Below, in pieces: positions 31,551 through 51,854 of a stretch of 64,000 nucleotides of DNA. How positions within the stretch are numbered: the stretch's first letter is position 1; every line of letters begins with the position of its first letter. The position numbers and the translations under genes were made by a program. The notes under the pieces are model-generated. The model did not search any database. It worked only from the letters and a program-made list of their open reading frames with translations, and was not told the DNA's origin. This DNA is from Giardia intestinalis. Lineage: Eukaryota. The stretch lies in the NCBI GenBank assembly GCA_000002435.2, contig CM018792.1; one strand, given 5' to 3'.

Positions 31551-31818
31551 GGAGATGGCTGTTAACGTAAGTATTGCAATAGTTAATTAATTTTTCTGTT
31601 TCTGGCCTCAACCCGAGGTCTCTTTAGGATGTCTGTTTACATGTTACACTACTTACTTTCGTTATTCACCTACTAACTCATTTGTTATATCTTCTAATCT
31701 GCAACCTTCGCGTATCAATTGATACTTCAAGCCCTTTTCAGAGCTTACTCCGGGCGCGCCGGGAGGCCTGCGACGGGTGCGAGCCTGCTGACCTGCTGAC
31801 CCGGGTGGAAAGAAAAGG

Positions 31819-32337
31819 ATGGCGTTCAGCTACTTCACGGTCCCGTCTGGCCAGCCCTTCAGGAGGCCGCTGCCCGGCCACGTTGTCGCGCGGCTAGCGC
31901 AGCCCCTCCGGAGGACGCGCTCTGTCGAGGAAGCGGCGGACCGCCGAAGCCAGGCCCTCTGGCGGCGTTCGGAAAAGGCCGGCGAGGTGTACAGAGCGGC
32001 CCGCAAGATCGCCATGAGCAGGCACTTGTTCGACTTTCACGACCGCGCAGTCGCCAAGCACCGCGCAGAAAGGGCGCAGCAGGAGGCAGAGCGCCGAAGG
32101 ACAGCGCTCCTCCAGTGCAAATCCGACGCGATAGCAGCTGGATACAACGAGTGGTACGACGCGCGGGTGTGCAAGGAGGAAGAGGAACACCTATCTAAGT
32201 CAAAGCGCGACAGGTATGGCGGTAAACGGGCAGGCCTCTGGGAAGAGCATCTGATACTCAGCAACGCCTCTATTCGCGTTTCCTCAGTGGGCCCAGCAAG
32301 GGCCCTTTCTGCTCCATATCAGCCAGCGTCTAATTGA
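31819..32337 (+). CDS. Hypothetical 172-aa protein with a basic, coiled-coil-like sequence, in palindrome arm copy 1.
   Basis: An intact ORF that is identical in both arms, Arg/Ala/Glu-rich (RAERAQQEAERRRTALLQ). No homolog was recognised. It may be a genuine small gene carried in the duplicated segment. Confidence 0.3.
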   Translation: MAFSYFTVPSGQPFRRPLPGHVVARLAQPLRRTRSVEEAADRRSQALWRRSEKAGEVYRAARKIAMSRHLFDFHDRAVAKHRAERAQQEAERRRTALLQCKSDAIAAGYNEWYDARVCKEEEEHLSKSKRDRYGGKRAGLWEEHLILSNASIRVSSVGPARALSAPYQPASN

Positions 32338-35300
32338 TGAAAAGTCTTCCTGCAAACCAAGTACTCTATTAAGTGGTTCGTTAGTGAATAGCACCTGTAC
32401 CAAATAGAGAGTTGCATAACGAGCTCAGAGGTTTTCTTCCTCTGTTGAGCCCGTTGCATAGATGAAGTTGGTACGCCTCAATCAGATATCTGAAGTGCCT
32501 CTTTATGAATGTACTCACAGATGCAACTAGAAGAGGTGCATCACACCTGACTCCATGTGTACAGACTTGACGCTATGCAAGATTACTTGACGGAAGTCTT
32601 CAGGGACGCTAGTCATCGGTCTACACGCCAAGGATTAGGAGTCTACATAAGATGCTCTCGCTATACTCTTTTGTATGTTGAAAGGAGCTGATTTCCTAAA
32701 ACACACTGATAAATATCAATAGCTTAAGCTTGAGGCCACAACTCCTCTTTGAACAACAGTCTATCGATGCTCAAGTATGGATTTCTAGAGTATTGATCAC
32801 GATAACCAGGTCTTTGAGATTGTCTTAAATGTCCAACCTTTCTAAAGCGCAGTTTAAATGACTACTAGTTTCCATGGTTTGTAGGCCGTAGTATAGACTT
32901 CGTTGAACTATTATACTTTTCCCATATCCCATAAACGTGCAGAAGGCTACTGTATTCTTGGAAGGGGTGATCTTTCATATATTTCTAAGCACTGAACCGT
33001 GGTTAGGATTGGTGTACAAGGTTATCAGACACACACGATGTCCATATTAAGACGCAGGACTTAAATGCTACAGGCGGCCTCAGAAAGAGCTCTCTGAGGG
33101 AACAAGAAGTGAGGCGACTAATGCACCGAAGATGCTGCGGGCCTCTGTCCACGGAGTGCAAACCCATTACTATGCAATTCGCTACCACAGGCTTCTGTCT
33201 GCGGCGACACAACTACTAGGTGACATCACACTCTGGAAGCTAGTGTGCGGGCTCACGTTGTAAGGTCGGCGGACCGGAGGATGCAGGAGCCACGGGGTAG
33301 TGACTGACCATCATGGCTTCTATAGGCTCTGCGGCTATTAGTACAGGGGCAGGGATGCTGCATCCTGGTGATTGGCCCAGAGCCGCACCATCCAATGGGC
33401 CGACGACCCTCATGTTGTTTCAATCTGAAGCGGCCTCCACTGCTGCCCCCGTACGAGTTGGAGAAGGGGTCGGCCCCATCGAATGCGGCAGAGAACAACA
33501 AGTCCCCAGTCTTCGGGCGAGGAAGATGGGTGATCTCGTCCAGGTGAAGCCGACTCCTCACCGTCCTCTGGGTCCTGCCTCTTCTACCGCCCTGGCACAA
33601 CATAGCTCGGTAGGGGGCGGCGTGTCTGCGCTACAGGACGCGTCGTCAAGAAAGAGTGGGCCTGGAGAGGCCCGACGGCCACCGCTGGGATAGGCCTCAG
33701 AAGCCCTTGGCTGCAGGATACGCTACTGCCAGGGTCAGTGCAGGCTATGGCTTTGAGGAAGCGCAGGACTGACGGGCGCTATCAGGAAACACCTGGCACG
33801 TTCTCGTGGAGAGGGGGACTCAGGCTTGGGGGCTTGGCAGTGTCGGGCCCGGGCTGGGTAGAGAGCTTGCTGTACCCGGAAGTGAAGACCCCAGCAAGCA
33901 GGAATAGTGGCCACAGCCAGTACAGCCGGCGGGTCGACCCGGGCCTCTTCAGCCGCGCTTGATGGAGCCCGACGTTGCGCCAGGCGACGGGACAGGGCAC
34001 CGGCCGTCTCTAGGGCATGCAGGAGGCGAGGCTTGTGAGCCCATGGGCGTCTGGCCTGCAAGCTGAGGCCACATCGGTGACGAGGCCCAGAGTGACGCAG
34101 CGTGGACGCTCTGTGGTGACGGGCCTGACAATGAGTGCAGCAAAGTTATGGGAATGGGCTCCGTCTGGGTCAGGACCTCAGAGTTCTCTTCGTCGTAAGG
34201 AAGAATAGGGCAGTGCGGTATAAGGGAGGCATCCGGCAAGATATGCTGGGAAACTGGCCCGTTGCGGTAAGTCACGGGCGCTGCCAAACACGGCGTCTCT
34301 TCTCTTAGACAGAAGACAGGCAGAATGGGTGACTGCGGAGGCTGCAGTGTCCGTGGTAGATCGCGGCATCGCAATGCGGCTGGGTCCGTGCCGGTGTGTC
34401 TGCCCGGACTCTAAGTGCGCTCTGAGGATCACCTGCTGATGGGCTGGAAGGCCCGAGAAGTGATGTGCTGCCCCTGTCATTGCGGGCAGCGCCCCGTGAC
34501 ACGCACTCGAGCCAGGGCCTCCTGGTGGCCAGAAGCAGAGCAGAGGCAGACGGCCGGTCGTGCATCCGTCCGGGCGGCTCACTGCATGTAGAGCGAAGAA
34601 GACCACTTGCGCCGCTCGGGTTATCGCTCAGCATCAAGTGCGGATGGAAGGCTGGGCCCGGCAACCAGGGCACCGACCTGTACGCTCCTGTCAGCCATCC
34701 CAGGCCGGCCAGAAGCCAGGCTCGACAGGCAGTGCAAAAGCCAGGGAAGCCAGCGTGATCATCGGGCCCGCGTTTGAATGCTAAAAAACTTGGGCGGCGA
34801 TGGCGACTGTCGTCTTCCTGGGAGGGCGCCTCTTCGCACAGGGTCAGCCGTCCTGGCCCTGCATGCTGGGTGCGCGGCTCGAGGGCGCGCTATGCTAGTT
34901 GAGGGCCTGCCAGGCGCTGCAGCCTACGAATAGCACGGACGGATGCAACGGGGTGTCCGAGCAGTGCACTGTCTTTGTCCCAGAGAGCTGTGGTTCTAAC
35001 CATGCGCCCTACACCAGCTCGGCATACCCCTGCTGCTTCCGCTGCTGGTCTGTCTGCCACTTGTTTATTATAGCGGGGGCGCATACGCTTGGGGTGTCGC
35101 CTAGGCACTGTAGTGGTCTTCTCTGACGGTGCGTGTATATTCACATGATGGCCGATGGGTGGAGCGGCTGCCTGATCTCCGAGCTCTCATTGCAACAAGG
35201 CGGGGCGTCGGCTGTCTACACGCCTCTAAGCGAGCCCGCGACCTCTGTGCAGATGCCTGCTCGCCGCGCTCCATAGTGACGGCTGTACACCCAGAAGGGG

Positions 35301-37566
35301 CTGCAGAATCCTCCGCTGTCCTTCGATGTGGACCACGGCTTGTGCACAGGCTAGCGACGGGGCCTGCACACTAGCTTCTATGGGCCCAGCCTGCCAGGCA
35401 CCTGGATCACAGTGCACGTCAAGACCGCACACTCGTTTGCATGCTCGCTGCTAATGTTGAACAGGACTGCGAGGGGTCTGTCTCTGGCCATCCTCGCCTT
35501 AGTACCTGGCCCTTGATGACACGCCTCAGTAGAGGATGGTGTCTTCTAAGTGCTCGGAAGACTATCCGTGCATGGCGGTTCCCGGAGAGTCGGTTCGCAC
35601 AGAAAGCGTAGATGTGCCCGGCGGGCTAGTGGGGTAAGGCTGGGGCTACAGAGACTAGCCATTAGTCCGGATTACAGCAGGGACACCTGTAGTGCCTCCT
35701 CGGCTCCTAAGCGTGGAAAGGCCGTAGAACTTGCAGATGAGTTGGAGGCTGCTTTTTGATTTTATGCATTTGCAGCAGAGCAGAGTTTACTGAAGGTCCA
35801 CTTATTCTAAATTCGAGGAGCCTCATCTCTTCCTCACACACGGTGAGATGATCGATTGTAGGGGTGTACTGTGCAAACCGGTGACAGTCAGCGTATCTAT
35901 TATCCAGACGGATACTGCCTGCGTCCTCCTGTGGCAGACCACCACCAGGGCCCCCAATCTACACATCTGTTCTGGCATCTGTCGGGCAATCATCACCTCC
36001 TGTCGAAGGATTGCTATACGTTACACATCTTGAGCCATCCATCGACCAGGTGGTGCCATAAGCTCTTGTCCCCTACTTGTCCACTCAATGCATACTCTGA
36101 GCGCCGCCAGTTGCACTCACGTCTGCACTACTCATCTGGATGCCCCCCACTCTTCAAGAGCACATGCCCGCAGCCGATGCTCCGTATTACAAGAGAAGTC
36201 AGCCGGATCACTGCGCTGTGCATAGCTCTCATAGGCGTGTTGCTATGCGCGCCCAGCCTTTCCACCCGTAGGCCGCCACGCGTTCACATGTGCGCCAGCG
36301 CCGCCGAGCTTTCGTGGTTTCGAGTGGCCCTGATGCATGGAGCGCTTGCGCACAAGTCCTTCCACCACTGACCCAGGCCGACCCCTCGCAAGATCCTTAG
36401 CGGAGTTGCATCCGAGATGTGTGTCTGCGTTGCTGTCCAGGTGCATGTGCCGGCCCTGGTGCTTCTCACAAGCTTGCGAGCATCGAGCTGGCCTCTACCG
36501 AACCGTATCAGAAGTCAGCACCAGGATGTGGTCCCCTCGGTTGGGCTCTGCAGGCTCCCAGAGCTACGCACCAAAGGGCCGTTCTTCTTTGCGCCGTGTA
36601 ACGTAGGGAGATGCACCGAGCTACTACGCCCTCTCCGTGTGGCGTGGTTTACGACGGGGGACGGGATCCCTGTGCTCATTGTCTATCTGCCCAGGGCCAG
36701 CCGCAGCCCGGGTTGAGGATGACAAGCGAAGATCTCCCAGCTCCTTGTCAGCGGGTGGGAGATCCCGCCACTCTAGTACCCACAACAAAGGGTGCCGATC
36801 ACTGGCAGAGGGACACGACACCCAGGCCCCGCTCCTTCCACTGATGGTACCTAATAAGAGACTCCTTTGTCGCCTGCACCAACAACCTCAGGCACCGTGG
36901 GTCAGAGTGCCTCCATAGTGGACAGCGGTAGCACTATGATGATCTGGGGTGATATGAGTCCTGGCTTACTGGCTCAGGAGGCAGCACGCTTTGGGTGGTT
37001 CTTCCCTCTTGTCCAGATCTGGGAGGGCTGGCTGCCTTCCGAGCCCCCTGGCACCTTGTCAGGTGATGGAGTGTCTTAAAGTATTCATTACAAAAGATCA
37101 GAAATAGCGCCATGCATTCCCAATAGATCAGAGGGTCTCACGAGCTACTCTATGCTGATTCACACCTTTCATGGACCCTAGCGACCACTGTAACCTTCTT
37201 TCGGGATCTTGCAAGGGACTGTCCTTGAGTGCGATTCCCCATGACAGCCGGGAGTCGCAGACATAATCCAAAGGGATGAGAGTACTACAGAGGCTGAGAG
37301 GAGAGTGCCGATGCACAGGGGTCCGCAGAGACCCGACTCGTACAGGGAAGGCGTGGAGGCTGGCTCTCCAGGGATGTAGAGCCACCAGGAAAGGAGCCGG
37401 CAGTGGGGCTGAGGGTCAGCAGAGGCACCCGAGCCGTCCTCTGATTGACCGCGAGGCAGCAGGCACATGGGGCGGCATCACCGCTTGTTTTTGGATTTTC
37501 TGCTTCCCTGCGCGTTGTGCAGGGGTCCGTAGTGGGTTGAGTATCACAGGCTACGCACAGCAACGC

Positions 37567-37581
37567 GTTTACTACCTAAGT
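37567..37581 (-). terminator. Extended vsp polyadenylation motif ACTYAGRTAGTRAAY (ACTTAGGTAGTAAAC on the minus strand), just 3' of the left-arm vsp.
   Basis: It is the reverse complement of gtttactacctaagt at 37567-37581, starting 5 nt after the vsp stop codon. This is the conserved 3' signature of Giardia vsp genes. Confidence 0.75.
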
Positions 37582-37585
37582 ACAT

Positions 37586-39811
37586 CTACGCCTTCCCTCT
37601 GCAGATGAACCACCAGCAGAGGAAGCCCACAAGGCCTCCGACGACGACAATGACTGCGACAGAGATCCCCGCGATGGCACCGGTAGAAAGGCCGCTCTTG
37701 TTCGTGCTTCCGTCGGTACTGTCACCATCTTTTATGAGGTAGCAGAGGACGGAGCCACTACCAGCCGATGGAGGGGCGCAGCTAGCGCAGTTGGCGACGC
37801 CGGTGATGGATCCCCCGTCGCTCTTGTCGCATGCTATGCACTTTTCTTTGGACAGGTAGTACCCTGCAGCGCACACCGTGCACTTGGTGGCATCGTTCGC
37901 ATTGCACTCGGAGCACCCAGTGGCGCAGGGAACACACTTCTGAGTGTTACCGCCAGTCTTAGCATATCCAGCCTTGCACGTGTCGCACTGGTCCTGGCTG
38001 GTGCACGTCTTACATCCGGCCGAGCAAGTGGTGAGCGCGCCGTTATCCAGCTTGTACCCGTCGGCCGGAGTCTGACAAGCATCGCTCGCTTCTGCTGCGG
38101 CTAAGCAGACGCTCTTTCCGGGGAACTTGGTCGTCTCATAGCAGCCCCCGTTCATACGAAGAAGCCCGTTGGCGCATTTATTGCAAACACCACTTCCTTG
38201 AGTAGTGCACGTAATGGCCTTTCCGGCCGCCGCCGAGCAGACTCCGTTCTGCGGAAACTGGCCGGCGTCCTTGCACTTGGAGCAGTAGGCCGTGCCATTG
38301 ACCGTCAGCTCGCACTTCTCGCAGTTGTTAGCATTTGGCTCGCATCCTGGTTTGCACGTCCCCGTGTTGCCCTCTCCTTCGTAGCTGAGGGCCTTCTTAG
38401 GCTCGCAGCTCGTACACCCGTTGGAGTTCCCGTTCGCGCACGTCTTACACGAGGTATCGCACTTGGCACAGGCGGCTCCGCTCTTGTAATATCCGTCCTT
38501 GCAGGTATCACACTGTCCGTTCTCGTTGCACAGGAGGCAGTTCTCGACCTCGCACTTCTTGCAGGCCTTCTTGCCCCCCTCGTTGGTGCCCGCGTAGTAG
38601 CCTCCCAGATCTCCGCAGTTATCGATGCACTGGCCCGTGGGCGTGAGGGCCTTAGTGCCCTCGCACTCTGTGCACACCTCCTTGCTTGTCTTCGGCTCAC
38701 TGCATGTCTTGCAGCCGGGGGTGTTGCACTGGGGGTCGGATTTCTTCGTGCACCCGGTGCCCGCGTTGTCGGGAACGTAGCCCTCGACGCACTCACAAAC
38801 GCCAGAGGTCTTTTCCTCGTTGGAGTTCAAGGGGCAGCTTTCAACGCACCCCTTCTTGTTTGGCTGGATCTTCTTATTAGGCCCGCACGTCTTGCAAACC
38901 ACTCCGGTGGGGCCTTTCTCACAAGTGGCGCAGTCCACCGTCCCTCCGGAAGCGCAGGTGTTGCACTCCTTTGCTTCCTTATCAACGTAATGAGTTGCCG
39001 GGCAGCCGTTTGCGTCAACGCACGTGCCAGTTGTGGACTCGTCATCCTTCTTTAGGTACGGCTTGTCATCCTTGCAGGAGGTGCACTTCGCAGCCCCAGT
39101 CTTACAGGTCTTGCATGTCTCAGCGCACTTGCTGCATTTTTTACCGCCCGTTGTATCGACGAAGAACCCTTCAGTGCCGGTGCACTCCTGTTCCGTCACA
39201 CACGACGTCGCGCCCCCGTCCGTCTTAACAATCCTCGCGGTTTGCTGCGCATCAGGGCCGCACGCAGTACACTTAGCAACTCCATTAGCTTGGCTCGTCA
39301 GTGCAGACCCGTCACAGGTAGTGCACCCGGCCACGCCCGTGTATGTCTTATCGCCAAGCGTTATGCCCGTCGCGTCTCCGCACGGTATAACCGACTGGTG
39401 AGAGACATCTGCGCCCGGTGGCACGAAGTATCCTTGCGCGGCTTGTGTGCATTTTCCCTCAGAGGCTTGCGTGCACATGGTCTGTCCGGGCTGCTGGGCT
39501 GCTTCGTAACACCCGCCCTTGTACATGAAAGTCTGACCAGCGCACTGTCCACAGGTCTGATCGGCTGTATTGCCTCCGGAGCTATCTTTACACTTATCTG
39601 TTGCACCATCTTTGCCTACACATTTTCCATTGATAGGAACAGATCCTGCGTCACATTGAGAACAGTACAGCTTATCGCCAATCAGAACGTTACATGCGTC
39701 TGCTGCACAATTAGTGTTATCTGCGCATTGAACTTCCCGCACGTGCTCTGCTACTTTTTCTGCCCATGCAATCTGGATGGCTAGGCCCGCGAATATAAAA
39801 CTACCGAACAT
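37586..39811 (-). CDS. vsp: Variant-specific surface protein (VSP), 741 aa, left-arm copy.
   Basis: Signal peptide MFGSFIFAGLAIQIAWA. About 11 percent Cys, arranged in dozens of CXXC motifs. Two GGCY motifs. A C-terminal transmembrane helix and the invariant cytoplasmic tail CRGKA. The start is ATGTT. The protein is identical to the right-arm copy. Confidence 0.92.
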   Translation of the reverse strand: MFGSFIFAGLAIQIAWAEKVAEHVREVQCADNTNCAADACNVLIGDKLYCSQCDAGSVPINGKCVGKDGATDKCKDSSGGNTADQTCGQCAGQTFMYKGGCYEAAQQPGQTMCTQASEGKCTQAAQGYFVPPGADVSHQSVIPCGDATGITLGDKTYTGVAGCTTCDGSALTSQANGVAKCTACGPDAQQTARIVKTDGGATSCVTEQECTGTEGFFVDTTGGKKCSKCAETCKTCKTGAAKCTSCKDDKPYLKKDDESTTGTCVDANGCPATHYVDKEAKECNTCASGGTVDCATCEKGPTGVVCKTCGPNKKIQPNKKGCVESCPLNSNEEKTSGVCECVEGYVPDNAGTGCTKKSDPQCNTPGCKTCSEPKTSKEVCTECEGTKALTPTGQCIDNCGDLGGYYAGTNEGGKKACKKCEVENCLLCNENGQCDTCKDGYYKSGAACAKCDTSCKTCANGNSNGCTSCEPKKALSYEGEGNTGTCKPGCEPNANNCEKCELTVNGTAYCSKCKDAGQFPQNGVCSAAAGKAITCTTQGSGVCNKCANGLLRMNGGCYETTKFPGKSVCLAAAEASDACQTPADGYKLDNGALTTCSAGCKTCTSQDQCDTCKAGYAKTGGNTQKCVPCATGCSECNANDATKCTVCAAGYYLSKEKCIACDKSDGGSITGVANCASCAPPSAGSGSVLCYLIKDGDSTDGSTNKSGLSTGAIAGISVAVIVVVGGLVGFLCWWFICRGKA

Positions 39812-41069
39812 TAACCAATCTGATAAATTGATAGGAAAAGAATCGCGGTACGTTCAGCCAATCCGTGTGACTGACACACCGCGGAGTATGGTAGCCTGCT
39901 TGGCGATCAGTAATAAAACGGGATCCACTAGTCTTCTTGAATGTTGCTTCACCCCTCACAATCTAGACACAATGATGATCACCCGACCACTTGTGTGGCC
40001 CATTGTCTTGCAGCGCGGAGCCCTACAGTGGCCATCTTCTGAACGACGCCACCCTGCCATTCGCGGAGGGCCCCTCATCCTCCCTCGTTATAGACCGTGG
40101 CAAAAGAGACACAGCAGGCGGCTTGTCCATCTCCGTAAACATCCGAGAGGGCCCTGCCTGTCTGTGTGAGGAGGTTTACTCTTTCCACCGAGGGCGGTTT
40201 TCGACTACTTCCGGCGCATCAGTCGCGTCCGGGCGGTGGCGTGCCGCTGGGGCCTGCCTGCGGCGTGGTCCAGAAGTCTCACGGGTAAGCCTCGCTCAAT
40301 TCCCGGCCAGCCCGGAGGCGAAGGGTGGTCGTGGGTCGCAGTGATAGCCACAGCGGTGGCAAAGAGGGGTCCCCTCCACGTGTGGATCTGGGGTCTCGCG
40401 TTCCTCGGCTGTTCTGCGGGCATGTGCACACAATCGGACCTGAGGCGAAGGAGAGCCCGCGAGGACCCGATCCGCATTACGAACGCAAGATCGTACCTCC
40501 GGACCCCAAACAGCAAGCCGTGAGTCTCTACTTGGGAGACCACTCCGAAGACGCTTGCCCTCTGGCAGGACACACATGCTGGCTCTGTGGCCTACCGTGT
40601 GAGAGCGCCAACAACTAACCGAGCACCTGAGAGAAGCAAACGATGACAGACACAGAGTACCGGGCGACGACAAGCTGATCCTTCCGGCCCAGTACCGAAC
40701 CAGACAGAGCTCGCCATGCTCATCCACCAAGGTGCACCCATGATCGCGAGCATCGAGCAGGCAGGGACTGGGGTCGCTCTTCCCGCTATCAGGGGCCTAG
40801 ACGCCCTGGTGGGAAGCCCCAGAGGACTCAAGCAACACAGTAGAGCAGGCCCAGAGCAAGTCGGACCCAGATCCAGAGAGGGCGAGGCGCCGGATAGCAA
40901 ACAGGGTGAACAACGCGCTGAGCTTCGGGGCAGTTGCTAAGGCTCTCCGCGCCCTTGATGACACGCCCATGGTAGACATCAAGTCGGAGAAGGCCAAGGC
41001 TGCCCTCAGCGCGCTACACCCGTGCGTCCTCCCCGAAGGCTACGTTGGCCTTGACTACCCTCTATCGAT

Positions 41070-42804
41070 GAACTCGACGGGGCTGGAGTGGCAACCGAGG
41101 AGGAAATGAGAAAGGCCCTGTTGGGACTCTCAACAAGAAGGCCTCGGGCGGTCCAGCTCAGGTGATGAAGCAGAACGACGACTGTGAAATGCCTCACGCA
41201 GGCGTACAACGAGCTGACCACCCACCCCGAAGGAGTCCGACGGATACCCCCGATCGCGATAGGCGAGACGGTCACGAACACCTTCCACCGCGTCCTGCTG
41301 AAGCGGCTGGTCAGGCATGCCAACTACCTCTCATGCGAACAGATCGCCTTCAAGCAGAACGCATACGCGGTAGGTGTGAGGAGGGCCCACGAGCTCATCA
41401 GCAGGCGGGGGTGCACCCCGTCTCCCTCGACATAAAGAACGCCCTCAACTCCCTCCCGAGGGCAGAGGTCGTCAGAGCCCTGAACGAGGCGGGCGTCCCG
41501 AAGGTCCTAGTCGACTACATTAGGAACTTCCTCGACCTGAGGCACAGCCGGGACGTGAAGTGCGAGGTCTGGGGCGTCCCCCAGGGCGACCCGCTCAGCA
41601 CTTTCCTCTTCTGCATGGCCATCGAGCGCCTCCTGAGACGCCTCAAGGAGAGGGGCATCACCTTCCTTGCCTAGCGGACGACATCGTGGCGCTCCACGAC
41701 GAGGCCTACCCGGCAGGCACGATAATACAGCAGGCCACGGTGGAGGCCGCCGCCATGGACCTGACGATCAGGAGCGACAAGTGCAAGTCCACCATGGCGG
41801 GCGAGGAGGTGACTTTCCTCAACCACCCGGTGTCCCCCACCCCTGCAAGCCTTGCCCCAAAGGCCATCGCAGGTGCTGAGACTGCCCCCATAACCATCCA
41901 CTAGAAGCTCATCTTGATGTCACTCTGTGTGGTCCCGATGGTGAACTACGCCCCCCTGGTCGAGATAACATCGGACAAGGCGGACTACGAGGAGCTCGAC
42001 AGACGTCGCACAAGGCTTCAGCAAAATAACCAACAGAAGCTGCGATCGCCTGGTCGACTTCCTGGCGTACCCGAAGGAGAAGGGCGGTCTGGGCCTGCTC
42101 ATGCCGGGGCTCTGCCACGACGAGCTGCGGAGGGCATGGGCCTCCCCGGACGTCAACAAGGGGACCAGGGACCCGGTGGAGCTGTCGGTGGGCGGCCAGG
42201 CACTGCAGGGGAAGGGGACCTACTTCAACCGCCTCCTCACGCGCACACATCAGCTTCCGGACAGAGCGGCGGCGTGCTGACCGAGGAGGAAAGGGCCCTG
42301 AAGGAGAGAGATGGCTCGATCATGGCGCAGACAAGAGGCACCTGCCCAGGCTGCCACACGGCGAGGACCCTCGACCACGAGGCACGACATGATCGTCGCG
42401 TGCCTGTACCTCCGCGTCTCGGGGAAGTTCAACGCAGAGCTGGAGGTCAAGACCCACAGCCACCTCAGCGACCAGAACCAGAAGCCCGACATCTGGCTCG
42501 TCGACAAGTGCAAGGCAGTGGACGTGCGTGTCATCCAGCCCCGCCAGATGGATGCCTACTACAACGAGAAGGTCAAGAAGTACAGGGACGGGACGCTCCC
42601 GATCATCTACGGGACAGACGGCTCCCTCCACCCCAGTCCAAGGGGCACCTCGAGGAGCTCCACGTGGACCTCTATCCGGGCTGCCTTCGCCATCGCCCAC
42701 ATGGCTGCAAAGGCGAACGAGCACCCGACGAAGCTGATCAGACGCGACCGGGCCGAAAGCCTGGCCACCCAGAGCGACCGCCTCCTGTCATCCTACTTCT
42801 GACA
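41070..42804 (+). mobile_element. Dead, 5'-truncated non-LTR retrotransposon (R2-clade; Genie/Gil-like, most like the degenerate Genie 2/GilD type). Reverse-transcriptase and REL-type endonuclease domains are broken by at least 4 frameshifts. A possible upstream zinc-finger remnant lies at ~40560-40650 and an untranslated tail runs to ~43046.
   Basis: RT motifs are spread over three frames: RRIPPIAIGETVTNTFHRVLLKRL; PVSLDIKNALNSL; GVPQGDPLSTFLF; and ITFLA followed by ADDIVALHDEAY, where the YADD box is broken by a 1-nt indel near 41675. The C-terminal block RGTCPGCH...RHDMIVACLYLRVSGKFNAELEVKTHSHLSDQNQKPDIWLVDKCKAVDVRVIQP aligns with the R2 REL-endonuclease (CCHC plus PD..D..K: RHNKIVSFVA...RKPDII...IVDVQVV). 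There is no intact ORF. Confidence 0.8.
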
Positions 42805-43657
42805 ACCGAATGAGCCCATCCCTGGGACCTGTCGACAACGATCGAGGGGGGGGCAAAGACTGGACACACAACCGAGTTGAATCCCAACCAGTGGAGAGAG
42901 CCCCGCTAGCTGCTGCTGATCTACATGGACAGTATCGAAAATGACAACAAAGACCAGAGCTTCACCCACCATGAAGGGAGAACAAGGAGAGGCACCCTCA
43001 GTAGAACAGTGAGTCCGTAAGAAAACCTCGAAAAGATCGATGTGCACGCCCGCGGAACAGCCGAGGAACGCGAGACCCCAGATCCACACGTGGAGGGGAC
43101 CCCTCTTTGCCACCGCTGTGGCTATCACTGCGACCCACGACCACCCTTCGCCTCCGGGCTGGCCGGGAATTGAGCGAGGCTTACCCGTGAGACTTCTGGA
43201 CCACGCCGCAGGCAGGCCCCAGCGGCACGCCACCGCCCGGACGCGACTGATGCGCCGGAAGTAGTCGAAAACCGCCCTCGGTGGAAAGAGTAAACCTCCT
43301 CACACAGACAGGCAGGGCCCTCTCGGATGTTTACGGAGATGGACAAGCCGCCTGCTGTGTCTCTTTTGCCACGGTCTATAACGAGGGAGGATGAGGGGCC
43401 CTCCGCGAATGGCAGGGTGGCGTCGTTCAGAAGATGGCCACTGTAGGGCTCCGCGCTGCAAGACAATGGGCCACACAAGTGGTCGGGTGATCATCATTGT
43501 GTCTAGATTGTGAGGGGTGAAGCAACATTCAAGAAGACTAGTGGATCCCGTTTTATTACTGATCGCCAAGCAGGCTACCATACTCCGCGGTGTGTCAGTC
43601 ACACGGATTGGCTGAACGTACCGCGATTCTTTTCCTATCAATTTATCAGATTGGTTA

Positions 43658-45883
43658 ATGTTCGGTAGTTTTATATTCGCGGGCCTAGCCATCCAGATTG
43701 CATGGGCAGAAAAAGTAGCAGAGCACGTGCGGGAAGTTCAATGCGCAGATAACACTAATTGTGCAGCAGACGCATGTAACGTTCTGATTGGCGATAAGCT
43801 GTACTGTTCTCAATGTGACGCAGGATCTGTTCCTATCAATGGAAAATGTGTAGGCAAAGATGGTGCAACAGATAAGTGTAAAGATAGCTCCGGAGGCAAT
43901 ACAGCCGATCAGACCTGTGGACAGTGCGCTGGTCAGACTTTCATGTACAAGGGCGGGTGTTACGAAGCAGCCCAGCAGCCCGGACAGACCATGTGCACGC
44001 AAGCCTCTGAGGGAAAATGCACACAAGCCGCGCAAGGATACTTCGTGCCACCGGGCGCAGATGTCTCTCACCAGTCGGTTATACCGTGCGGAGACGCGAC
44101 GGGCATAACGCTTGGCGATAAGACATACACGGGCGTGGCCGGGTGCACTACCTGTGACGGGTCTGCACTGACGAGCCAAGCTAATGGAGTTGCTAAGTGT
44201 ACTGCGTGCGGCCCTGATGCGCAGCAAACCGCGAGGATTGTTAAGACGGACGGGGGCGCGACGTCGTGTGTGACGGAACAGGAGTGCACCGGCACTGAAG
44301 GGTTCTTCGTCGATACAACGGGCGGTAAAAAATGCAGCAAGTGCGCTGAGACATGCAAGACCTGTAAGACTGGGGCTGCGAAGTGCACCTCCTGCAAGGA
44401 TGACAAGCCGTACCTAAAGAAGGATGACGAGTCCACAACTGGCACGTGCGTTGACGCAAACGGCTGCCCGGCAACTCATTACGTTGATAAGGAAGCAAAG
44501 GAGTGCAACACCTGCGCTTCCGGAGGGACGGTGGACTGCGCCACTTGTGAGAAAGGCCCCACCGGAGTGGTTTGCAAGACGTGCGGGCCTAATAAGAAGA
44601 TCCAGCCAAACAAGAAGGGGTGCGTTGAAAGCTGCCCCTTGAACTCCAACGAGGAAAAGACCTCTGGCGTTTGTGAGTGCGTCGAGGGCTACGTTCCCGA
44701 CAACGCGGGCACCGGGTGCACGAAGAAATCCGACCCCCAGTGCAACACCCCCGGCTGCAAGACATGCAGTGAGCCGAAGACAAGCAAGGAGGTGTGCACA
44801 GAGTGCGAGGGCACTAAGGCCCTCACGCCCACGGGCCAGTGCATCGATAACTGCGGAGATCTGGGAGGCTACTACGCGGGCACCAACGAGGGGGGCAAGA
44901 AGGCCTGCAAGAAGTGCGAGGTCGAGAACTGCCTCCTGTGCAACGAGAACGGACAGTGTGATACCTGCAAGGACGGATATTACAAGAGCGGAGCCGCCTG
45001 TGCCAAGTGCGATACCTCGTGTAAGACGTGCGCGAACGGGAACTCCAACGGGTGTACGAGCTGCGAGCCTAAGAAGGCCCTCAGCTACGAAGGAGAGGGC
45101 AACACGGGGACGTGCAAACCAGGATGCGAGCCAAATGCTAACAACTGCGAGAAGTGCGAGCTGACGGTCAATGGCACGGCCTACTGCTCCAAGTGCAAGG
45201 ACGCCGGCCAGTTTCCGCAGAACGGAGTCTGCTCGGCGGCGGCCGGAAAGGCCATTACGTGCACTACTCAAGGAAGTGGTGTTTGCAATAAATGCGCCAA
45301 CGGGCTTCTTCGTATGAACGGGGGCTGCTATGAGACGACCAAGTTCCCCGGAAAGAGCGTCTGCTTAGCCGCAGCAGAAGCGAGCGATGCTTGTCAGACT
45401 CCGGCCGACGGGTACAAGCTGGATAACGGCGCGCTCACCACTTGCTCGGCCGGATGTAAGACGTGCACCAGCCAGGACCAGTGCGACACGTGCAAGGCTG
45501 GATATGCTAAGACTGGCGGTAACACTCAGAAGTGTGTTCCCTGCGCCACTGGGTGCTCCGAGTGCAATGCGAACGATGCCACCAAGTGCACGGTGTGCGC
45601 TGCAGGGTACTACCTGTCCAAAGAAAAGTGCATAGCATGCGACAAGAGCGACGGGGGATCCATCACCGGCGTCGCCAACTGCGCTAGCTGCGCCCCTCCA
45701 TCGGCTGGTAGTGGCTCCGTCCTCTGCTACCTCATAAAAGATGGTGACAGTACCGACGGAAGCACGAACAAGAGCGGCCTTTCTACCGGTGCCATCGCGG
45801 GGATCTCTGTCGCAGTCATTGTCGTCGTCGGAGGCCTTGTGGGCTTCCTCTGCTGGTGGTTCATCTGCAGAGGGAAGGCGTAG
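43658..45883 (+). CDS. vsp: Variant-specific surface protein (VSP), 741 aa, right-arm copy. Its amino-acid sequence is identical to the left-arm vsp.
   Basis: The features match those of 37586-39811, including the CRGKA terminus. It is transcribed away from the palindrome centre. Confidence 0.92.
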   Translation: MFGSFIFAGLAIQIAWAEKVAEHVREVQCADNTNCAADACNVLIGDKLYCSQCDAGSVPINGKCVGKDGATDKCKDSSGGNTADQTCGQCAGQTFMYKGGCYEAAQQPGQTMCTQASEGKCTQAAQGYFVPPGADVSHQSVIPCGDATGITLGDKTYTGVAGCTTCDGSALTSQANGVAKCTACGPDAQQTARIVKTDGGATSCVTEQECTGTEGFFVDTTGGKKCSKCAETCKTCKTGAAKCTSCKDDKPYLKKDDESTTGTCVDANGCPATHYVDKEAKECNTCASGGTVDCATCEKGPTGVVCKTCGPNKKIQPNKKGCVESCPLNSNEEKTSGVCECVEGYVPDNAGTGCTKKSDPQCNTPGCKTCSEPKTSKEVCTECEGTKALTPTGQCIDNCGDLGGYYAGTNEGGKKACKKCEVENCLLCNENGQCDTCKDGYYKSGAACAKCDTSCKTCANGNSNGCTSCEPKKALSYEGEGNTGTCKPGCEPNANNCEKCELTVNGTAYCSKCKDAGQFPQNGVCSAAAGKAITCTTQGSGVCNKCANGLLRMNGGCYETTKFPGKSVCLAAAEASDACQTPADGYKLDNGALTTCSAGCKTCTSQDQCDTCKAGYAKTGGNTQKCVPCATGCSECNANDATKCTVCAAGYYLSKEKCIACDKSDGGSITGVANCASCAPPSAGSGSVLCYLIKDGDSTDGSTNKSGLSTGAIAGISVAVIVVVGGLVGFLCWWFICRGKA

Positions 45884-45887
45884 ATGT

Positions 45888-45902
45888 ACTTAGGTAGTAA
45901 AC
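45888..45902 (+). terminator. Extended vsp polyadenylation motif ACTYAGRTAGTRAAY (ACTTAGGTAGTAAAC), 3' of the right-arm vsp.
   Basis: The sequence reads tag atgt ACTTAGGTAGTAAAC gcg, starting 5 nt after the stop codon. Confidence 0.75.
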
Positions 45903-48900
45903 GCGTTGCTGTGCGTAGCCTGTGATACTCAACCCACTACGGACCCCTGCACAACGCGCAGGGAAGCAGAAAATCCAAAAACAAGCGGTGATGCCGCCCC
46001 ATGTGCCTGCTGCCTCGCGGTCAATCAGAGGACGGCTCGGGTGCCTCTGCTGACCCTCAGCCCCACTGCCGGCTCCTTTCCTGGTGGCTCTACATCCCTG
46101 GAGAGCCAGCCTCCACGCCTTCCCTGTACGAGTCGGGTCTCTGCGGACCCCCGTGCATCGGCGCTCTCCTCTCAGCCTCTGTAGTACTCTCATCCCTTTG
46201 GATTATGTCTGCGACTCCCGGCTGTCATGGGGAATCGCACTCAAGGACAGTCCCTTGCAAGATCCCGAAAGAAGGTTACAGTGGTCGCTAGGGTCCATGA
46301 AAGGTGTGAATCAGCATAGAGTAGCTCGTGAGACCCTCTGATCTATTGGGAATGCATGGCGCTATTTCTGATCTTTTGTAATGAATACTTTAAGACACTC
46401 CATCACCTGACAAGGTGCCAGGGGGCTCGGAAGGCAGCCAGCCCTCCCAGATCTGGACAAGAGGGAAGAACCACCCAAAGCGTGCTGCCTCCTGAGCCAG
46501 TAAGCCAGGACTCATATCACCCCAGATCATCATAGTGCTACCGCTGTCCACTATGGAGGCACTCTGACCCACGGTGCCTGAGGTTGTTGGTGCAGGCGAC
46601 AAAGGAGTCTCTTATTAGGTACCATCAGTGGAAGGAGCGGGGCCTGGGTGTCGTGTCCCTCTGCCAGTGATCGGCACCCTTTGTTGTGGGTACTAGAGTG
46701 GCGGGATCTCCCACCCGCTGACAAGGAGCTGGGAGATCTTCGCTTGTCATCCTCAACCCGGGCTGCGGCTGGCCCTGGGCAGATAGACAATGAGCACAGG
46801 GATCCCGTCCCCCGTCGTAAACCACGCCACACGGAGAGGGCGTAGTAGCTCGGTGCATCTCCCTACGTTACACGGCGCAAAGAAGAACGGCCCTTTGGTG
46901 CGTAGCTCTGGGAGCCTGCAGAGCCCAACCGAGGGGACCACATCCTGGTGCTGACTTCTGATACGGTTCGGTAGAGGCCAGCTCGATGCTCGCAAGCTTG
47001 TGAGAAGCACCAGGGCCGGCACATGCACCTGGACAGCAACGCAGACACACATCTCGGATGCAACTCCGCTAAGGATCTTGCGAGGGGTCGGCCTGGGTCA
47101 GTGGTGGAAGGACTTGTGCGCAAGCGCTCCATGCATCAGGGCCACTCGAAACCACGAAAGCTCGGCGGCGCTGGCGCACATGTGAACGCGTGGCGGCCTA
47201 CGGGTGGAAAGGCTGGGCGCGCATAGCAACACGCCTATGAGAGCTATGCACAGCGCAGTGATCCGGCTGACTTCTCTTGTAATACGGAGCATCGGCTGCG
47301 GGCATGTGCTCTTGAAGAGTGGGGGGCATCCAGATGAGTAGTGCAGACGTGAGTGCAACTGGCGGCGCTCAGAGTATGCATTGAGTGGACAAGTAGGGGA
47401 CAAGAGCTTATGGCACCACCTGGTCGATGGATGGCTCAAGATGTGTAACGTATAGCAATCCTTCGACAGGAGGTGATGATTGCCCGACAGATGCCAGAAC
47501 AGATGTGTAGATTGGGGGCCCTGGTGGTGGTCTGCCACAGGAGGACGCAGGCAGTATCCGTCTGGATAATAGATACGCTGACTGTCACCGGTTTGCACAG
47601 TACACCCCTACAATCGATCATCTCACCGTGTGTGAGGAAGAGATGAGGCTCCTCGAATTTAGAATAAGTGGACCTTCAGTAAACTCTGCTCTGCTGCAAA
47701 TGCATAAAATCAAAAAGCAGCCTCCAACTCATCTGCAAGTTCTACGGCCTTTCCACGCTTAGGAGCCGAGGAGGCACTACAGGTGTCCCTGCTGTAATCC
47801 GGACTAATGGCTAGTCTCTGTAGCCCCAGCCTTACCCCACTAGCCCGCCGGGCACATCTACGCTTTCTGTGCGAACCGACTCTCCGGGAACCGCCATGCA
47901 CGGATAGTCTTCCGAGCACTTAGAAGACACCATCCTCTACTGAGGCGTGTCATCAAGGGCCAGGTACTAAGGCGAGGATGGCCAGAGACAGACCCCTCGC
48001 AGTCCTGTTCAACATTAGCAGCGAGCATGCAAACGAGTGTGCGGTCTTGACGTGCACTGTGATCCAGGTGCCTGGCAGGCTGGGCCCATAGAAGCTAGTG
48101 TGCAGGCCCCGTCGCTAGCCTGTACACAAGCCGTGGTCCACATCGAAGGACAGCGGAGGATTCTGCAGCCCCTTCTGGGTGTACAGCCGTCACTATGGAG
48201 CGCGGCGAGCAGGCATCTGCACAGAGGTCGCGGGCTCGCTTAGAGGCGTGTAGACAGCCGACGCCCCGCCTTGTTGCAATGAGAGCTCGGAGATCAGGCA
48301 GCCGCTCCACCCATCGGCCATCATGTGAATATACACGCACCGTCAGAGAAGACCACTACAGTGCCTAGGCGACACCCCAAGCGTATGCGCCCCCGCTATA
48401 ATAAACAAGTGGCAGACAGACCAGCAGCGGAAGCAGCAGGGGTATGCCGAGCTGGTGTAGGGCGCATGGTTAGAACCACAGCTCTCTGGGACAAAGACAG
48501 TGCACTGCTCGGACACCCCGTTGCATCCGTCCGTGCTATTCGTAGGCTGCAGCGCCTGGCAGGCCCTCAACTAGCATAGCGCGCCCTCGAGCCGCGCACC
48601 CAGCATGCAGGGCCAGGACGGCTGACCCTATGCGAAGAGGCGCCCTCCCAGGAAGACGACAGTCGCCATCGCCGCCCAAGTTTTTTAGCATTCAAACGCG
48701 GGCCCGATGATCACGCTGGCTTCCCTGGCTTTTGCACTGCCTGTCGAGCCTGGCTTCTGGCCGGCCTGGGATGGCTGACAGGAGCGTACAGGTCGGTGCC
48801 CTGGTTGCCGGGCCCAGCCTTCCATCCGCACTTGATGCTGAGCGATAACCCGAGCGGCGCAAGTGGTCTTCTTCGCTCTACATGCAGTGAGCCGCCCGGA

Positions 48901-51131
48901 CGGATGCACGACCGGCCGTCTGCCTCTGCTCTGCTTCTGGCCACCAGGAGGCCCTGGCTCGAGTGCGTGTCACGGGGCGCTGCCCGCAATGACAGGGGCA
49001 GCACATCACTTCTCGGGCCTTCCAGCCCATCAGCAGGTGATCCTCAGAGCGCACTTAGAGTCCGGGCAGACACACCGGCACGGACCCAGCCGCATTGCGA
49101 TGCCGCGATCTACCACGGACACTGCAGCCTCCGCAGTCACCCATTCTGCCTGTCTTCTGTCTAAGAGAAGAGACGCCGTGTTTGGCAGCGCCCGTGACTT
49201 ACCGCAACGGGCCAGTTTCCCAGCATATCTTGCCGGATGCCTCCCTTATACCGCACTGCCCTATTCTTCCTTACGACGAAGAGAACTCTGAGGTCCTGAC
49301 CCAGACGGAGCCCATTCCCATAACTTTGCTGCACTCATTGTCAGGCCCGTCACCACAGAGCGTCCACGCTGCGTCACTCTGGGCCTCGTCACCGATGTGG
49401 CCTCAGCTTGCAGGCCAGACGCCCATGGGCTCACAAGCCTCGCCTCCTGCATGCCCTAGAGACGGCCGGTGCCCTGTCCCGTCGCCTGGCGCAACGTCGG
49501 GCTCCATCAAGCGCGGCTGAAGAGGCCCGGGTCGACCCGCCGGCTGTACTGGCTGTGGCCACTATTCCTGCTTGCTGGGGTCTTCACTTCCGGGTACAGC
49601 AAGCTCTCTACCCAGCCCGGGCCCGACACTGCCAAGCCCCCAAGCCTGAGTCCCCCTCTCCACGAGAACGTGCCAGGTGTTTCCTGATAGCGCCCGTCAG
49701 TCCTGCGCTTCCTCAAAGCCATAGCCTGCACTGACCCTGGCAGTAGCGTATCCTGCAGCCAAGGGCTTCTGAGGCCTATCCCAGCGGTGGCCGTCGGGCC
49801 TCTCCAGGCCCACTCTTTCTTGACGACGCGTCCTGTAGCGCAGACACGCCGCCCCCTACCGAGCTATGTTGTGCCAGGGCGGTAGAAGAGGCAGGACCCA
49901 GAGGACGGTGAGGAGTCGGCTTCACCTGGACGAGATCACCCATCTTCCTCGCCCGAAGACTGGGGACTTGTTGTTCTCTGCCGCATTCGATGGGGCCGAC
50001 CCCTTCTCCAACTCGTACGGGGGCAGCAGTGGAGGCCGCTTCAGATTGAAACAACATGAGGGTCGTCGGCCCATTGGATGGTGCGGCTCTGGGCCAATCA
50101 CCAGGATGCAGCATCCCTGCCCCTGTACTAATAGCCGCAGAGCCTATAGAAGCCATGATGGTCAGTCACTACCCCGTGGCTCCTGCATCCTCCGGTCCGC
50201 CGACCTTACAACGTGAGCCCGCACACTAGCTTCCAGAGTGTGATGTCACCTAGTAGTTGTGTCGCCGCAGACAGAAGCCTGTGGTAGCGAATTGCATAGT
50301 AATGGGTTTGCACTCCGTGGACAGAGGCCCGCAGCATCTTCGGTGCATTAGTCGCCTCACTTCTTGTTCCCTCAGAGAGCTCTTTCTGAGGCCGCCTGTA
50401 GCATTTAAGTCCTGCGTCTTAATATGGACATCGTGTGTGTCTGATAACCTTGTACACCAATCCTAACCACGGTTCAGTGCTTAGAAATATATGAAAGATC
50501 ACCCCTTCCAAGAATACAGTAGCCTTCTGCACGTTTATGGGATATGGGAAAAGTATAATAGTTCAACGAAGTCTATACTACGGCCTACAAACCATGGAAA
50601 CTAGTAGTCATTTAAACTGCGCTTTAGAAAGGTTGGACATTTAAGACAATCTCAAAGACCTGGTTATCGTGATCAATACTCTAGAAATCCATACTTGAGC
50701 ATCGATAGACTGTTGTTCAAAGAGGAGTTGTGGCCTCAAGCTTAAGCTATTGATATTTATCAGTGTGTTTTAGGAAATCAGCTCCTTTCAACATACAAAA
50801 GAGTATAGCGAGAGCATCTTATGTAGACTCCTAATCCTTGGCGTGTAGACCGATGACTAGCGTCCCTGAAGACTTCCGTCAAGTAATCTTGCATAGCGTC
50901 AAGTCTGTACACATGGAGTCAGGTGTGATGCACCTCTTCTAGTTGCATCTGTGAGTACATTCATAAAGAGGCACTTCAGATATCTGATTGAGGCGTACCA
51001 ACTTCATCTATGCAACGGGCTCAACAGAGGAAGAAAACCTCTGAGCTCGTTATGCAACTCTCTATTTGGTACAGGTGCTATTCACTAACGAACCACTTAA
51101 TAGAGTACTTGGTTTGCAGGAAGACTTTTCA

Positions 51132-51650: not shown

Positions 51651-51854
51651 CCTTTTCTTTCCACCCGGGTCAGCAGGTCAGCAGGCTCGCACCCGTCGCA
51701 GGCCTCCCGGCGCGCCCGGAGTAAGCTTTGGGGATGCCCACATTTCAGAAGTATTCAAATCCTAACTACATTACATAGTCATAATCTCAATACGAAGAAA
51801 CAGTCGGCCTACTAAGTTACCAATGGACGTACCAAGCAAGTTAATGGGAGCTAT

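What the first reader, a model, noticed from the sequence alone, without database searches (positions are those of the whole stretch)
33250..37560. A 4.3 kb GC-rich tract without ORFs in each arm, compositionally unlike the surrounding genome
Elsewhere in the window, genes abut at tens of bp. These 4.3 kb, mirrored at ~45.9-50.2 kb, are GC-rich (locally up to ~70 percent) and contain only short, mutually overlapping ORFs of at most 166 aa in all six frames, which is the signature of non-coding or decayed sequence. A block of this size and composition next to a vsp gene is unexpected. It may be an eroded mobile element, a decayed gene array, a non-coding RNA locus or a chromatin boundary. A further ~0.9 kb AT-normal stretch without ORFs (32338-33250) separates it from the 172-aa ORF.
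Basis: seen in the sequence. Interest (0 to 1): 0.5.

Follow-up and report, generated by a model that had tools for sequence, protein, structure and literature searches.

The report
Non-coding GC-rich DNA flanking Giardia VSP pair
The 4.3 kb tract is real but ordinary: it is neutrally evolving non-coding DNA downstream of a catalogued, inverted pair of Giardia surface-antigen (VSP) genes, a gene-poor, GC-rich, fast-changing kind of region already described around VSP genes.

Summary
Window 33250-37560 and its mirror 45909-50219 are 60% GC against 48% in the core, and no ORF exceeds 166 aa. The window is Giardia intestinalis WB chromosome 4. The tract lies inside an 8,686-nt inverted repeat whose arms differ at 7 sites. 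That repeat carries the published head-to-head identical pair vsp162.1/.2 (GL50803_111936/111933).

The tract shows no coding signal:
- ORF lengths match composition-preserving shuffles.
- Period-3 power is 1.2, against 9.2 for the VSP.
- No Pfam or Rfam hit, and no internal repeats.
- A 232-276 aa ORF that is open in other isolates has dN/dS near 1.

Among assemblage-A isolates the tract diverges 4-8%, while synonymous sites in flanking genes diverge 3.4%. At the same site in assemblage E (P15), the sequence recovered lacks both the tract and the VSP. Substitutions run GC to AT by 42 to 9, so the high GC is inherited from an earlier state and is decaying.

A retrotransposon relic does exist, but it sits in the centre between the arms (41271-42935), not in the tract.

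Published work already reports that VSP surroundings are gene-poor, GC-rich and variable. The tract is therefore a large example of a known kind, and its ultimate origin is unresolved. Interest is low.

The parts
31739..40424 (.). Left arm of the inverted repeat (8,686 nt)
   Evidence: One search reports the pair. One search finds 7 mismatches to the right arm, all transitions.
43045..51730 (.). Right arm of the inverted repeat
31819..32337 (+). 172-aa orphan gene (GL50803_00135269), duplicated at 51132-51650 (-). It is a real gene.
   Evidence: Exact match to KAE8304550/553. It is conserved in assemblage E. dN 0.010 and dS 0.076 against L019. No Pfam family.
32338..33049 (.). AT-normal non-coding spacer (about 40% GC). 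Its first ~450 nt are alignable with assemblage E.
   Evidence: It is 70% identical to P15 over 32345-32787 and 5.8% divergent from L019.
33050..37585 (.). GC-rich non-coding tract (the finding's 33250-37560). It lies between the convergent 3' ends of the 172-aa gene and the VSP.
   Evidence: GC. No Pfam or Rfam hit. ORF lengths equal random expectation. Period-3 power 1.2. dN/dS about 1 in the longest frame. 6.7% divergent from L019. Nothing is annotated here in the 2020 annotation, where KAE8304550 and 551 are consecutive. The deprecated 2007 ORF GL50803_119130 is 33253-33603 (-).
45884..50419 (.). Mirror copy of the GC-rich tract in the right arm
37586..39811 (-). VSP gene vsp162 (741 aa, 28 CXXC). 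The identical copy is at 43658-45883 (+), head to head with 3,846 nt between the ORFs.
   Evidence: Pfam VSP at E 1.6e-140. Exact match to KAE8304551/552. Adam 2010 Table 5 and supplement list vsp162.1/.2 = GL50803_111936/111933, HH identical pair, chromosome 4, 741 aa, 3847 bp.
40425..43044 (.). Unique centre between the arms (2,620 nt, about 62% GC)
41271..42935 (+). Frameshifted relic of a non-LTR retrotransposon (RT C-terminal part plus endonuclease), a member of a multi-copy dead family. It lies outside the finding's coordinates.
   Evidence: 42311-42802 is an exact match to XP_001704665 'Reverse transcriptase/endonuclease, putative'. There are 33 paralogue clusters in Giardia. tblastn maps all of them to this stretch and nowhere else. 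Period-3 power is 3.5-11.6.

Best explanation
The tract is neutrally evolving non-coding DNA that travels with a VSP gene. It fills the convergent gap between the 3' end of a small conserved orphan gene and the 3' end of vsp162. Together with both genes, it forms each arm of an 8.7 kb palindrome on Giardia WB chromosome 4.

It does nothing that depends on its sequence. It is one of the long, gene-poor, GC-rich, hypervariable stretches that surround VSP genes at breaks in synteny.

Inferred history:
1. A VSP-plus-tract segment is present in the assemblage A lineage, between the zf-CHY and peroxiredoxin genes and next to a dead retrotransposon relic.
2. That segment, together with the 172-aa gene, was then duplicated in inverted orientation around the relic.
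3. The two arms have since been kept nearly identical by arm-to-arm gene conversion, while the sequence as a whole drifts quickly between isolates.
4. The high GC content is inherited from an earlier state and is now eroding towards AT.

Shown here: the tract is non-coding, unique in sequence, fast and neutrally evolving, losing GC, and not present in the sequence recovered at the orthologous site in assemblage E. Inferred: the order of events, gene conversion between the arms, and the absence of any sequence-specific function.
For: Identity of the locus. The VSP, the 172-aa protein and the zf-CHY protein match WB proteins KAE8304549-553 exactly, and those accessions are consecutive, so nothing is annotated in the tract. 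The pair is vsp162.1/.2.

Non-coding:
- No Pfam hit at E<=1 in six frames.
- No Rfam hit at gathering score or at E<=1.
- No tandem or internal repeats.
- ORF lengths equal shuffle expectation.
- Period-3 power is 1.2, against 9.2 for the VSP and 4.0 for core genes.
- The longest frame has dN/dS 0.7-1.3, variable sites at codon positions 26/26/21, and stop codons at different places in different isolates.
- The '166-aa ORF' is broken by indels that are not multiples of three when isolates are compared.

Unique sequence. Two tract queries return only orthologous copies, and a scan of 1.84 billion representatives adds nothing. The tract has no similarity to the rest of the window.

Fast and neutral. 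The tract is 6.7% and the spacer 5.8% divergent from L019. Flanking genes show pS 0.034 and pN 0.0057. Five haplotypes differ by 3-8%.

GC decay. Polarised singleton changes are 42 GC-to-AT against 9 AT-to-GC (p = 3e-6). The implied equilibrium GC is 0.27-0.33, against the current 0.63.

Lineage-specific. In P15 the spacer runs straight into the homologue of the WB centre relic. Neither P15 contig at this locus contains the tract or a VSP.

Concerted evolution. The arms are 99.92% identical. Contigs from isolates whose tract is 6-7% divergent start or stop at the same repeat boundary, at 31742 and 31757.

Literature. VSP surroundings are gene-poor with more allelic variation (PMC7000408). VSP intergenic regions have mean 2,131 nt and raised GC, and duplicated pairs are flanked by retrotransposon relics (bioRxiv 10.1101/2022.03.07.483299).
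Against: - The source of the high GC is not identified.
- At 5.2 kb the gap is more than twice the published mean VSP intergenic length.
- The P15 contig on the peroxiredoxin side ends 2 kb past the 172-aa gene, so absence of the tract in assemblage E is shown only for the sequence recovered.
- No cross-isolate data cover 36670-37585.
- No expression, small-RNA or chromatin data were available, so a role that does not depend on primary sequence (spacer, boundary, transcript) is not excluded.
- The GC-to-AT excess comes from about 1.2 kb of five haplotypes and from singleton changes. It would also be seen if biased gene conversion later removed such changes.
- Gene conversion between arms in the other isolates is inferred from collapsed contigs. 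It was not observed directly.
Confidence: 0.8

Rival explanations
1. The tract is the eroded non-coding part (long untranslated region) or a heavily decayed body of a Giardia non-LTR retrotransposon (GilD, GilM or GilT). It would then be a mobile-element relic like the one in the centre.
For: A relic of that family lies 3.7 kb away at 41271-42935. A preprint states that duplicated VSP pairs are 'always surrounded by retrotransposon relics'. The tract is GC-rich like the relic.
Against: None of the 41 RT/endonuclease family fragments hits the tract at E<=0.01. Pfam finds no RVT or endonuclease domain at E<=1. The tract has no period-3 signal, whereas the centre relic keeps one. Tract queries find only orthologues, whereas the relic query finds 33 paralogue clusters. 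The tract shows no similarity to the centre. No coding relic adjoins it on either side.
Confidence: 0.1
2. The tract is the remains of one or more old VSP or other cysteine-rich genes (a decayed gene array). Its high GC would be a leftover of VSP codon usage.
For: It sits next to a VSP. Its GC (0.60) is close to that of the VSP gene (0.575). GC is decaying as expected for sequence that has lost constraint. CXXC motifs summed over six frames number 15, against 7.2 +/- 2.6 in shuffles. VSP pseudogenes are very common in this genome.
Against: The Pfam VSP model finds nothing at E<=1. tblastn of the neighbouring VSP gives a best E of 0.12 over 22 residues. Period-3 power is at the white-noise level. 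ORF lengths are random. tblastx finds no similarity to the VSP gene in the window.
Confidence: 0.07
3. The tract has a function that does not depend on conserved primary sequence. Candidates are a spacer or chromatin boundary isolating the silent VSP from housekeeping genes, or a zone of convergent transcription that yields double-stranded RNA for VSP silencing.
For: It lies between two convergent genes. A GC-rich block also follows the 172-aa gene's spacer in assemblage E, although it is a different sequence, the relic X. VSP expression is epigenetically controlled (abstract of PMC2996952).
Against: There is no conserved island within the tract. Evolution is neutral and fast. The sequence recovered from assemblage E lacks the tract. 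No structured-RNA match was found. Nothing in the sequence requires a function.
Confidence: 0.05

Closest known systems
Gene-poor, GC-rich, variable regions around Giardia VSP genes (Xu et al. 2020, PMC7000408; bioRxiv 10.1101/2022.03.07.483299)
   Same: The tract adjoins a VSP, has no supported genes, has GC well above the 48% core, and varies more between isolates than the core does. It lies at a break in synteny between assemblages.
   Different: It is larger than usual: 5.2 kb from gene to gene, against a published median of 1,280 nt and mean of 2,131 nt. It lies 3' of the VSP, whereas the published GC analysis covered 5' upstream regions.
Inverted identical VSP pairs (Adam et al. 2010, PMC2996952), specifically vsp162.1/.2 = GL50803_111936/111933
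   Same: This is that pair: head to head, identical 741-aa ORFs, chromosome 4, 3,846-3,847 nt between the ORFs.
   Different: Where Table 5 of that paper gives a flank divergence point, it lies 139-729 nt from the ORF. For vsp162 no 3' divergence point is given. Here the identity runs 5.85 kb past the stop codon and takes in the tract and a second, non-VSP gene.
Dead non-LTR retrotransposon relics of Giardia (annotated 'Reverse transcriptase/endonuclease, putative'; the GilD/GilM/GilT families of Arkhipova and Morrison 2001, cited from memory and via PMC10999387)
   Same: Such a relic is present in the same palindrome, at 41271-42935. It is GC-rich and frameshifted.
   Different: The tract has no protein-level similarity to the family, is not multi-copy, and keeps no codon periodicity. 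The relic and the tract are separate features.
Large palindromes kept uniform by arm-to-arm gene conversion (for example human Y-chromosome palindromes and plastid inverted repeats; from general knowledge)
   Same: The arms are 99.92% identical, while the same arms differ by 6-7% between isolates that appear to share the repeat boundary.
   Different: Conversion was not observed directly here. Divergence inside the arms is higher than in the flanks, not lower as in plastid inverted repeats.

Membership tests
VSP-flanking gene-poor GC-rich region | Directly adjoins a VSP gene | tested here: met
   The tract ends at the stop codon of the 741-aa VSP, at 37586.
VSP-flanking gene-poor GC-rich region | No supported protein-coding gene | tested here: met
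   Nothing is annotated between KAE8304550 and KAE8304551.
VSP-flanking gene-poor GC-rich region | GC above the genome or core average | tested here: met
   0.598 against 0.483 +/- 0.032.
VSP-flanking gene-poor GC-rich region | Raised sequence variation | tested here: met
   6.7% against pS 0.034 in flanking genes. Haplotypes are 3-8% apart. This measures variation between isolates. Allelic variation within WB reads could not be measured.
Inverted identical VSP pair (Adam 2010) | Two identical VSP ORFs in inverted orientation, 2-4 kb apart | tested here: met
   No differences within the ORFs. The ORFs are head to head and 3,846 nt apart. This matches the vsp162 entry.
Non-LTR retrotransposon relic (Gil family) | Similarity to the element's RT or endonuclease protein | tested here: not met
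   All family fragments map to 41271-42935 only. No Pfam RVT hit in the tract.
Non-LTR retrotransposon relic (Gil family) | Multiple dispersed copies in the genome | tested here: not met
   Only orthologous hits for two tract segments. This tested predicted proteins, not whole-genome DNA.
Non-LTR retrotransposon relic (Gil family) | DNA similarity to the element's untranslated regions | not testable with these tools
   No Giardia genome or repeat library could be searched at the DNA level.
VSP / cysteine-rich pseudogene | blastx or HMM similarity to VSP or CRMP proteins | tested here: not met
   The Pfam VSP model finds nothing. tblastn of the adjacent VSP has best E 0.12.
VSP / cysteine-rich pseudogene | Enrichment of CXXC motifs in a reading frame | tested here: inconclusive
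   15 over six frames against 7.2 +/- 2.6 in shuffles. The VSP gene has 28 in its own frame.
Protein-coding gene disrupted by frameshifts | Purifying selection or codon periodicity in some frame | tested here: not met
   dN/dS 0.7-1.3 and variable sites 26/26/21. Period-3 power 1.2. Indels between isolates are not multiples of three.
rDNA or another described non-coding RNA | Match to an Rfam covariance model | tested here: not met
   No match at gathering score in the window and none at E<=1 over 32300-43100.

The most novel reading that the evidence does not exclude
The tract is not inert. As the long convergent gap between a housekeeping-type gene and a VSP, duplicated in a palindrome, it could act as a sequence-independent insulator. 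It could also be a source of convergent transcripts feeding RNA-based silencing of vsp162. In that case its length and GC, rather than its sequence, would be under selection.
Probability: 0.05. Interest if true: 0.55.

Novelty: already known. Interest (0 to 1): 0.2.

Why it matters
It matters little on its own. It shows that a conspicuous block without ORFs in the compact Giardia genome is a large example of the published VSP-neighbourhood pattern. It is not a hidden gene, an rDNA fragment or a new element.

Three by-products may interest people studying how VSP repertoires evolve:
- The palindrome arms appear to evolve in concert while diverging fast between isolates.
- The GC richness of this VSP flank is out of equilibrium and eroding.
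- The same slot between zf-CHY and peroxiredoxin carries a differently built palindrome in assemblage E.

Tried and rejected
- rDNA or structured RNA: rejected. Rfam finds nothing at gathering score or at E<=1.
- Protein-domain remnants in six frames, with stops masked as X: none at E<=1. A first attempt using DNA references failed because of the stop codons.
- Tandem and internal repeats, and G-quadruplex motifs: none.
- Similarity of the tract to the rest of the window by blastn and tblastx: only itself and its mirror.
- A hidden gene. A 232-276 aa ORF is open in other isolates at 35084-34308 (-), and WB has one stop codon in that frame. It looked promising but is neutral. The 166-aa ORF is broken by indels between isolates.
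- A dispersed repeat. This was suggested because nine AI contigs all end at 33117. It is not supported by the protein-level searches. The cause of the shared break is unresolved.
- Retrotransposon relic: true for the centre, not for the tract.
- Look-up of WB tract ORFs: only the deprecated GL50803_119130 (33253-33603) is on record.
- Look-up of P0003, a 43-aa 'member' of the VSP cluster: it returned unrelated eukaryotic contigs and used the last look-up.
- Exact-pattern scan of JGI metagenome contigs with a conserved 49-mer of the tract: no hit.
- The Arkhipova and Morrison 2001 paper could not be read.
Full report
**1.

The window is Giardia. The 741-aa ORF at 37586-39811 (-) matches the Pfam VSP family at E 1.6e-140. 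It is an exact match to WB proteins KAE8304551/552. The neighbouring zf-CHY protein and a 172-aa hypothetical protein match KAE8304549 and KAE8304550/553, all on a 2.76 Mb contig.

The tract 33250-37560 is 59.8% GC. The core of the window is 48.3 +/- 3.2% in 500-nt windows. The local peak is 70.5% in 200 nt, and GC steps up at about 33000-33050. The longest ORF with a start codon is 166 aa, and the longest stop-free stretch is 194 codons.

The tract is mirrored because it lies inside an inverted repeat with arms 31739-40424 and 43045-51730. The arms differ at only 7 of 8,686 positions. All seven are transitions; four lie in the tract and none in an ORF.

The tract is not the only GC-rich part of the locus. 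The VSP gene and the 3.8 kb between the two VSPs are equally GC-rich.

**2. It is non-coding by every test available**

- ORF lengths in the tract equal those of shuffles that keep local composition. The longest is 194 against 191 +/- 41, and there are 11 segments of at least 100 codons against 10.5 +/- 2.8.
- Period-3 Fourier power averages 1.2, the white-noise value. It is 9.2 in the VSP, 4.0 in core genes and 3.5-11.6 in the retroelement relic of the centre.
- Six-frame translations with stops masked hit no Pfam family at E<=1.
- Rfam finds nothing at gathering score in the window, or at E<=1 in 32300-43100.
- There are no tandem repeats, no internal direct or inverted repeats of note, and no G-quadruplex motifs.
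- The tract resembles nothing else in the window.
- The adjacent VSP protein finds nothing in it, with best E 0.12.

**3. The one promising ORF is a chance ORF**

A search with the 194-codon frame (34308-34889, minus strand) found only unnamed proteins of 232-276 aa from other Giardia samples, 85-95% identical. In those samples the frame is open from about 35084 to 34308. WB has a single stop at 34890-34892.

Across five haplotypes the variable sites fall 26/26/21 on codon positions 1/2/3. Pairwise dN/dS is 0.73-1.32. Different isolates carry stops at different places. A scan of 1.84 billion representative proteins added no relative.

The 166-aa ORF (35871-36371) has one 62%-identical counterpart. 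The DNA alignment shows several indels inside it that are not multiples of three. Neither ORF is a gene.

**4. It evolves fast and neutrally, and its GC is decaying**

Contigs from other assemblage-A-type samples cover 31739-36670 (L011-L015, L019-L022).

Against L019:
- Flanking genes have pS 0.034 and pN 0.0057.
- The 172-aa gene has dN 0.010 and dS 0.076, so it is a real gene under constraint.
- The AT-normal spacer is 5.8% divergent and the tract 6.7% divergent.

Five tract haplotypes differ from one another by 3-8%, and no conserved island stands out.

I polarised changes as singletons against at least three agreeing haplotypes over 34200-35376. There are 42 GC-to-AT changes against 9 AT-to-GC (binomial p = 3e-6). 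The implied equilibrium GC is 0.27-0.33, against the present 0.63, and the result holds with CpG sites removed.

The high GC is therefore a legacy and not a steady state. There is a caveat: biased gene conversion acting later on such changes would give the same picture.

**5. Context: a catalogued VSP palindrome at a synteny break**

The pair is vsp162.1/.2 (GL50803_111936/111933). Adam et al. 2010 list it as a head-to-head identical pair on chromosome 4, 741 aa, 28 CXXC, with 3,847 bp between the ORFs (PMC2996952). Their table gives no 3' divergence point for it. Here the identity runs 5.85 kb beyond the stop codon.

The unique centre holds a frameshifted relic of a non-LTR retrotransposon at 41271-42935 (+):
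- 42311-42802 is exactly XP_001704665 'Reverse transcriptase/endonuclease, putative'.
- The family has 33 paralogue clusters in Giardia.
- All 41 tested fragments map to this stretch and none maps to the tract.

In assemblage E (P15) the same slot is built differently:
- On the peroxiredoxin side, the 172-aa gene and about 450 nt of spacer are followed directly by the homologue of the WB centre relic.
- On the zf-CHY side, a 99.3%-identical inverted copy of that relic follows the zinc-finger gene, and then comes a NEK-type kinase/ankyrin gene.
- No tract and no VSP are present in the sequence recovered.

The tract-plus-VSP unit is therefore specific to the assemblage A lineage at this site, or was lost in E. 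It lies at a synteny break of the kind already linked to VSP, NEK and ankyrin families (PMC7000408).

**6. Concerted evolution of the arms (inference)**

Contigs from samples whose tract is 6-7% diverged from WB end or begin at the WB repeat boundary: L013 at 31742, and L020-L022 at 31757. This suggests that the palindrome predates the divergence of these isolates. Yet the WB arms differ by only 0.08%. Arm-to-arm gene conversion is the simplest reading, but it was not observed directly.

**7. Comparison with what is known**

Xu et al. 2020 report that regions around VSPs are gene-poor and show more allelic variation.

A 2022 preprint reports the following:
- VSP intergenic regions have a median of 1,280 nt and a mean of 2,131 nt, against a genome median of 79 nt.
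- GC is higher near VSPs.
- Hypothetical genes next to duplicated VSPs are themselves duplicated.
- Retrotransposon remnants lie between head-to-head pairs.

The tract fits this description. It is a large example on the 3' side.

**8. Verdict**

- The specific candidates (mobile element, gene array, RNA locus) were tested and not supported for the tract. The RNA test covers only described Rfam families.
- The claim that the tract is unexpected is not supported by the literature.
- What sequence the GC-rich DNA descends from remains unknown.
- Also unexplained are the common contig break at 33117 in AI isolates and a second, 77.5%-identical version of 35348-36402 in one metagenome.
- Novelty: already known kind. 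Interest: low.

Noticed in passing
window 41271-42935 (+): The unique centre between the two VSPs holds a frameshifted relic of a non-LTR retrotransposon (RT C-terminal part plus endonuclease). It belongs to a multi-copy dead family with 33 paralogue clusters in WB, DH and GS. 42311-42802 equals XP_001704665.
   Followed up: yes
L016 10980-12539 and L023 (reverse complement) 268-1831, both P15, assemblage E: At the same slot between zf-CHY and peroxiredoxin, P15 has a different palindrome. The homologue of the WB centre relic is itself the inverted repeat (99.3% over 1,564 nt). A NEK-type kinase/ankyrin gene lies inside, and only one copy of the 172-aa gene was seen.
   Followed up: partly
window 31819-32337 (+) and 51132-51650 (-): The duplicated 172-aa 'hypothetical protein' (GL50803_00135269/135270) is a real gene. 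It has dN/dS about 0.14, is conserved at 91% identity in assemblage E, and has no Pfam family. Its dS (0.076) is about twice that of the flanking genes.
   Followed up: partly
window 33078-33117: Nine of ten short-read contigs from WB-like isolates end exactly at 33117. That is 18 nt past an imperfect palindrome (CCTCAGA-A-AGAGCTCT-CTGAGG, 33078-33099) and coincides with the GC step. The cause was not determined; it could be heterozygosity, a repeat or a coverage drop.
   Followed up: partly
L024 181-1208, matching window 35348-36402: A metagenome that also holds the 93.7% orthologue (L021) contains a second version of this part of the tract. It is 77.5% identical overall and mosaic: about 70% identical, then about 92%. 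Similarity stops sharply at 35348.
   Followed up: partly
window 33800-34000: The GC-richest point of the tract (0.74 in 100 nt at 33909) coincides with the most indel-rich, least alignable stretch between isolates. Several contigs and one scaffold gap end here.
   Followed up: no
window 31741, 34839, 35345, 37306, 37317, 40415, 40422: These are the only seven differences between the two arms. All are transitions, and three of them sit within 10 nt of the arm ends.
   Followed up: yes
window 33253-33603 (-): This 116-aa ORF is the deprecated 2007 gene model GL50803_119130 (XP_001704671). It was dropped in the 2020 annotation and nothing here supports it.
   Followed up: yes
P0003 (listed as a member of the VSP cluster), L025-L027: A 43-aa sequence filed in the 90% cluster of this VSP is unrelated to it. 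It comes from non-Giardia eukaryotic contigs, so the cluster membership is spurious.
   Followed up: yes
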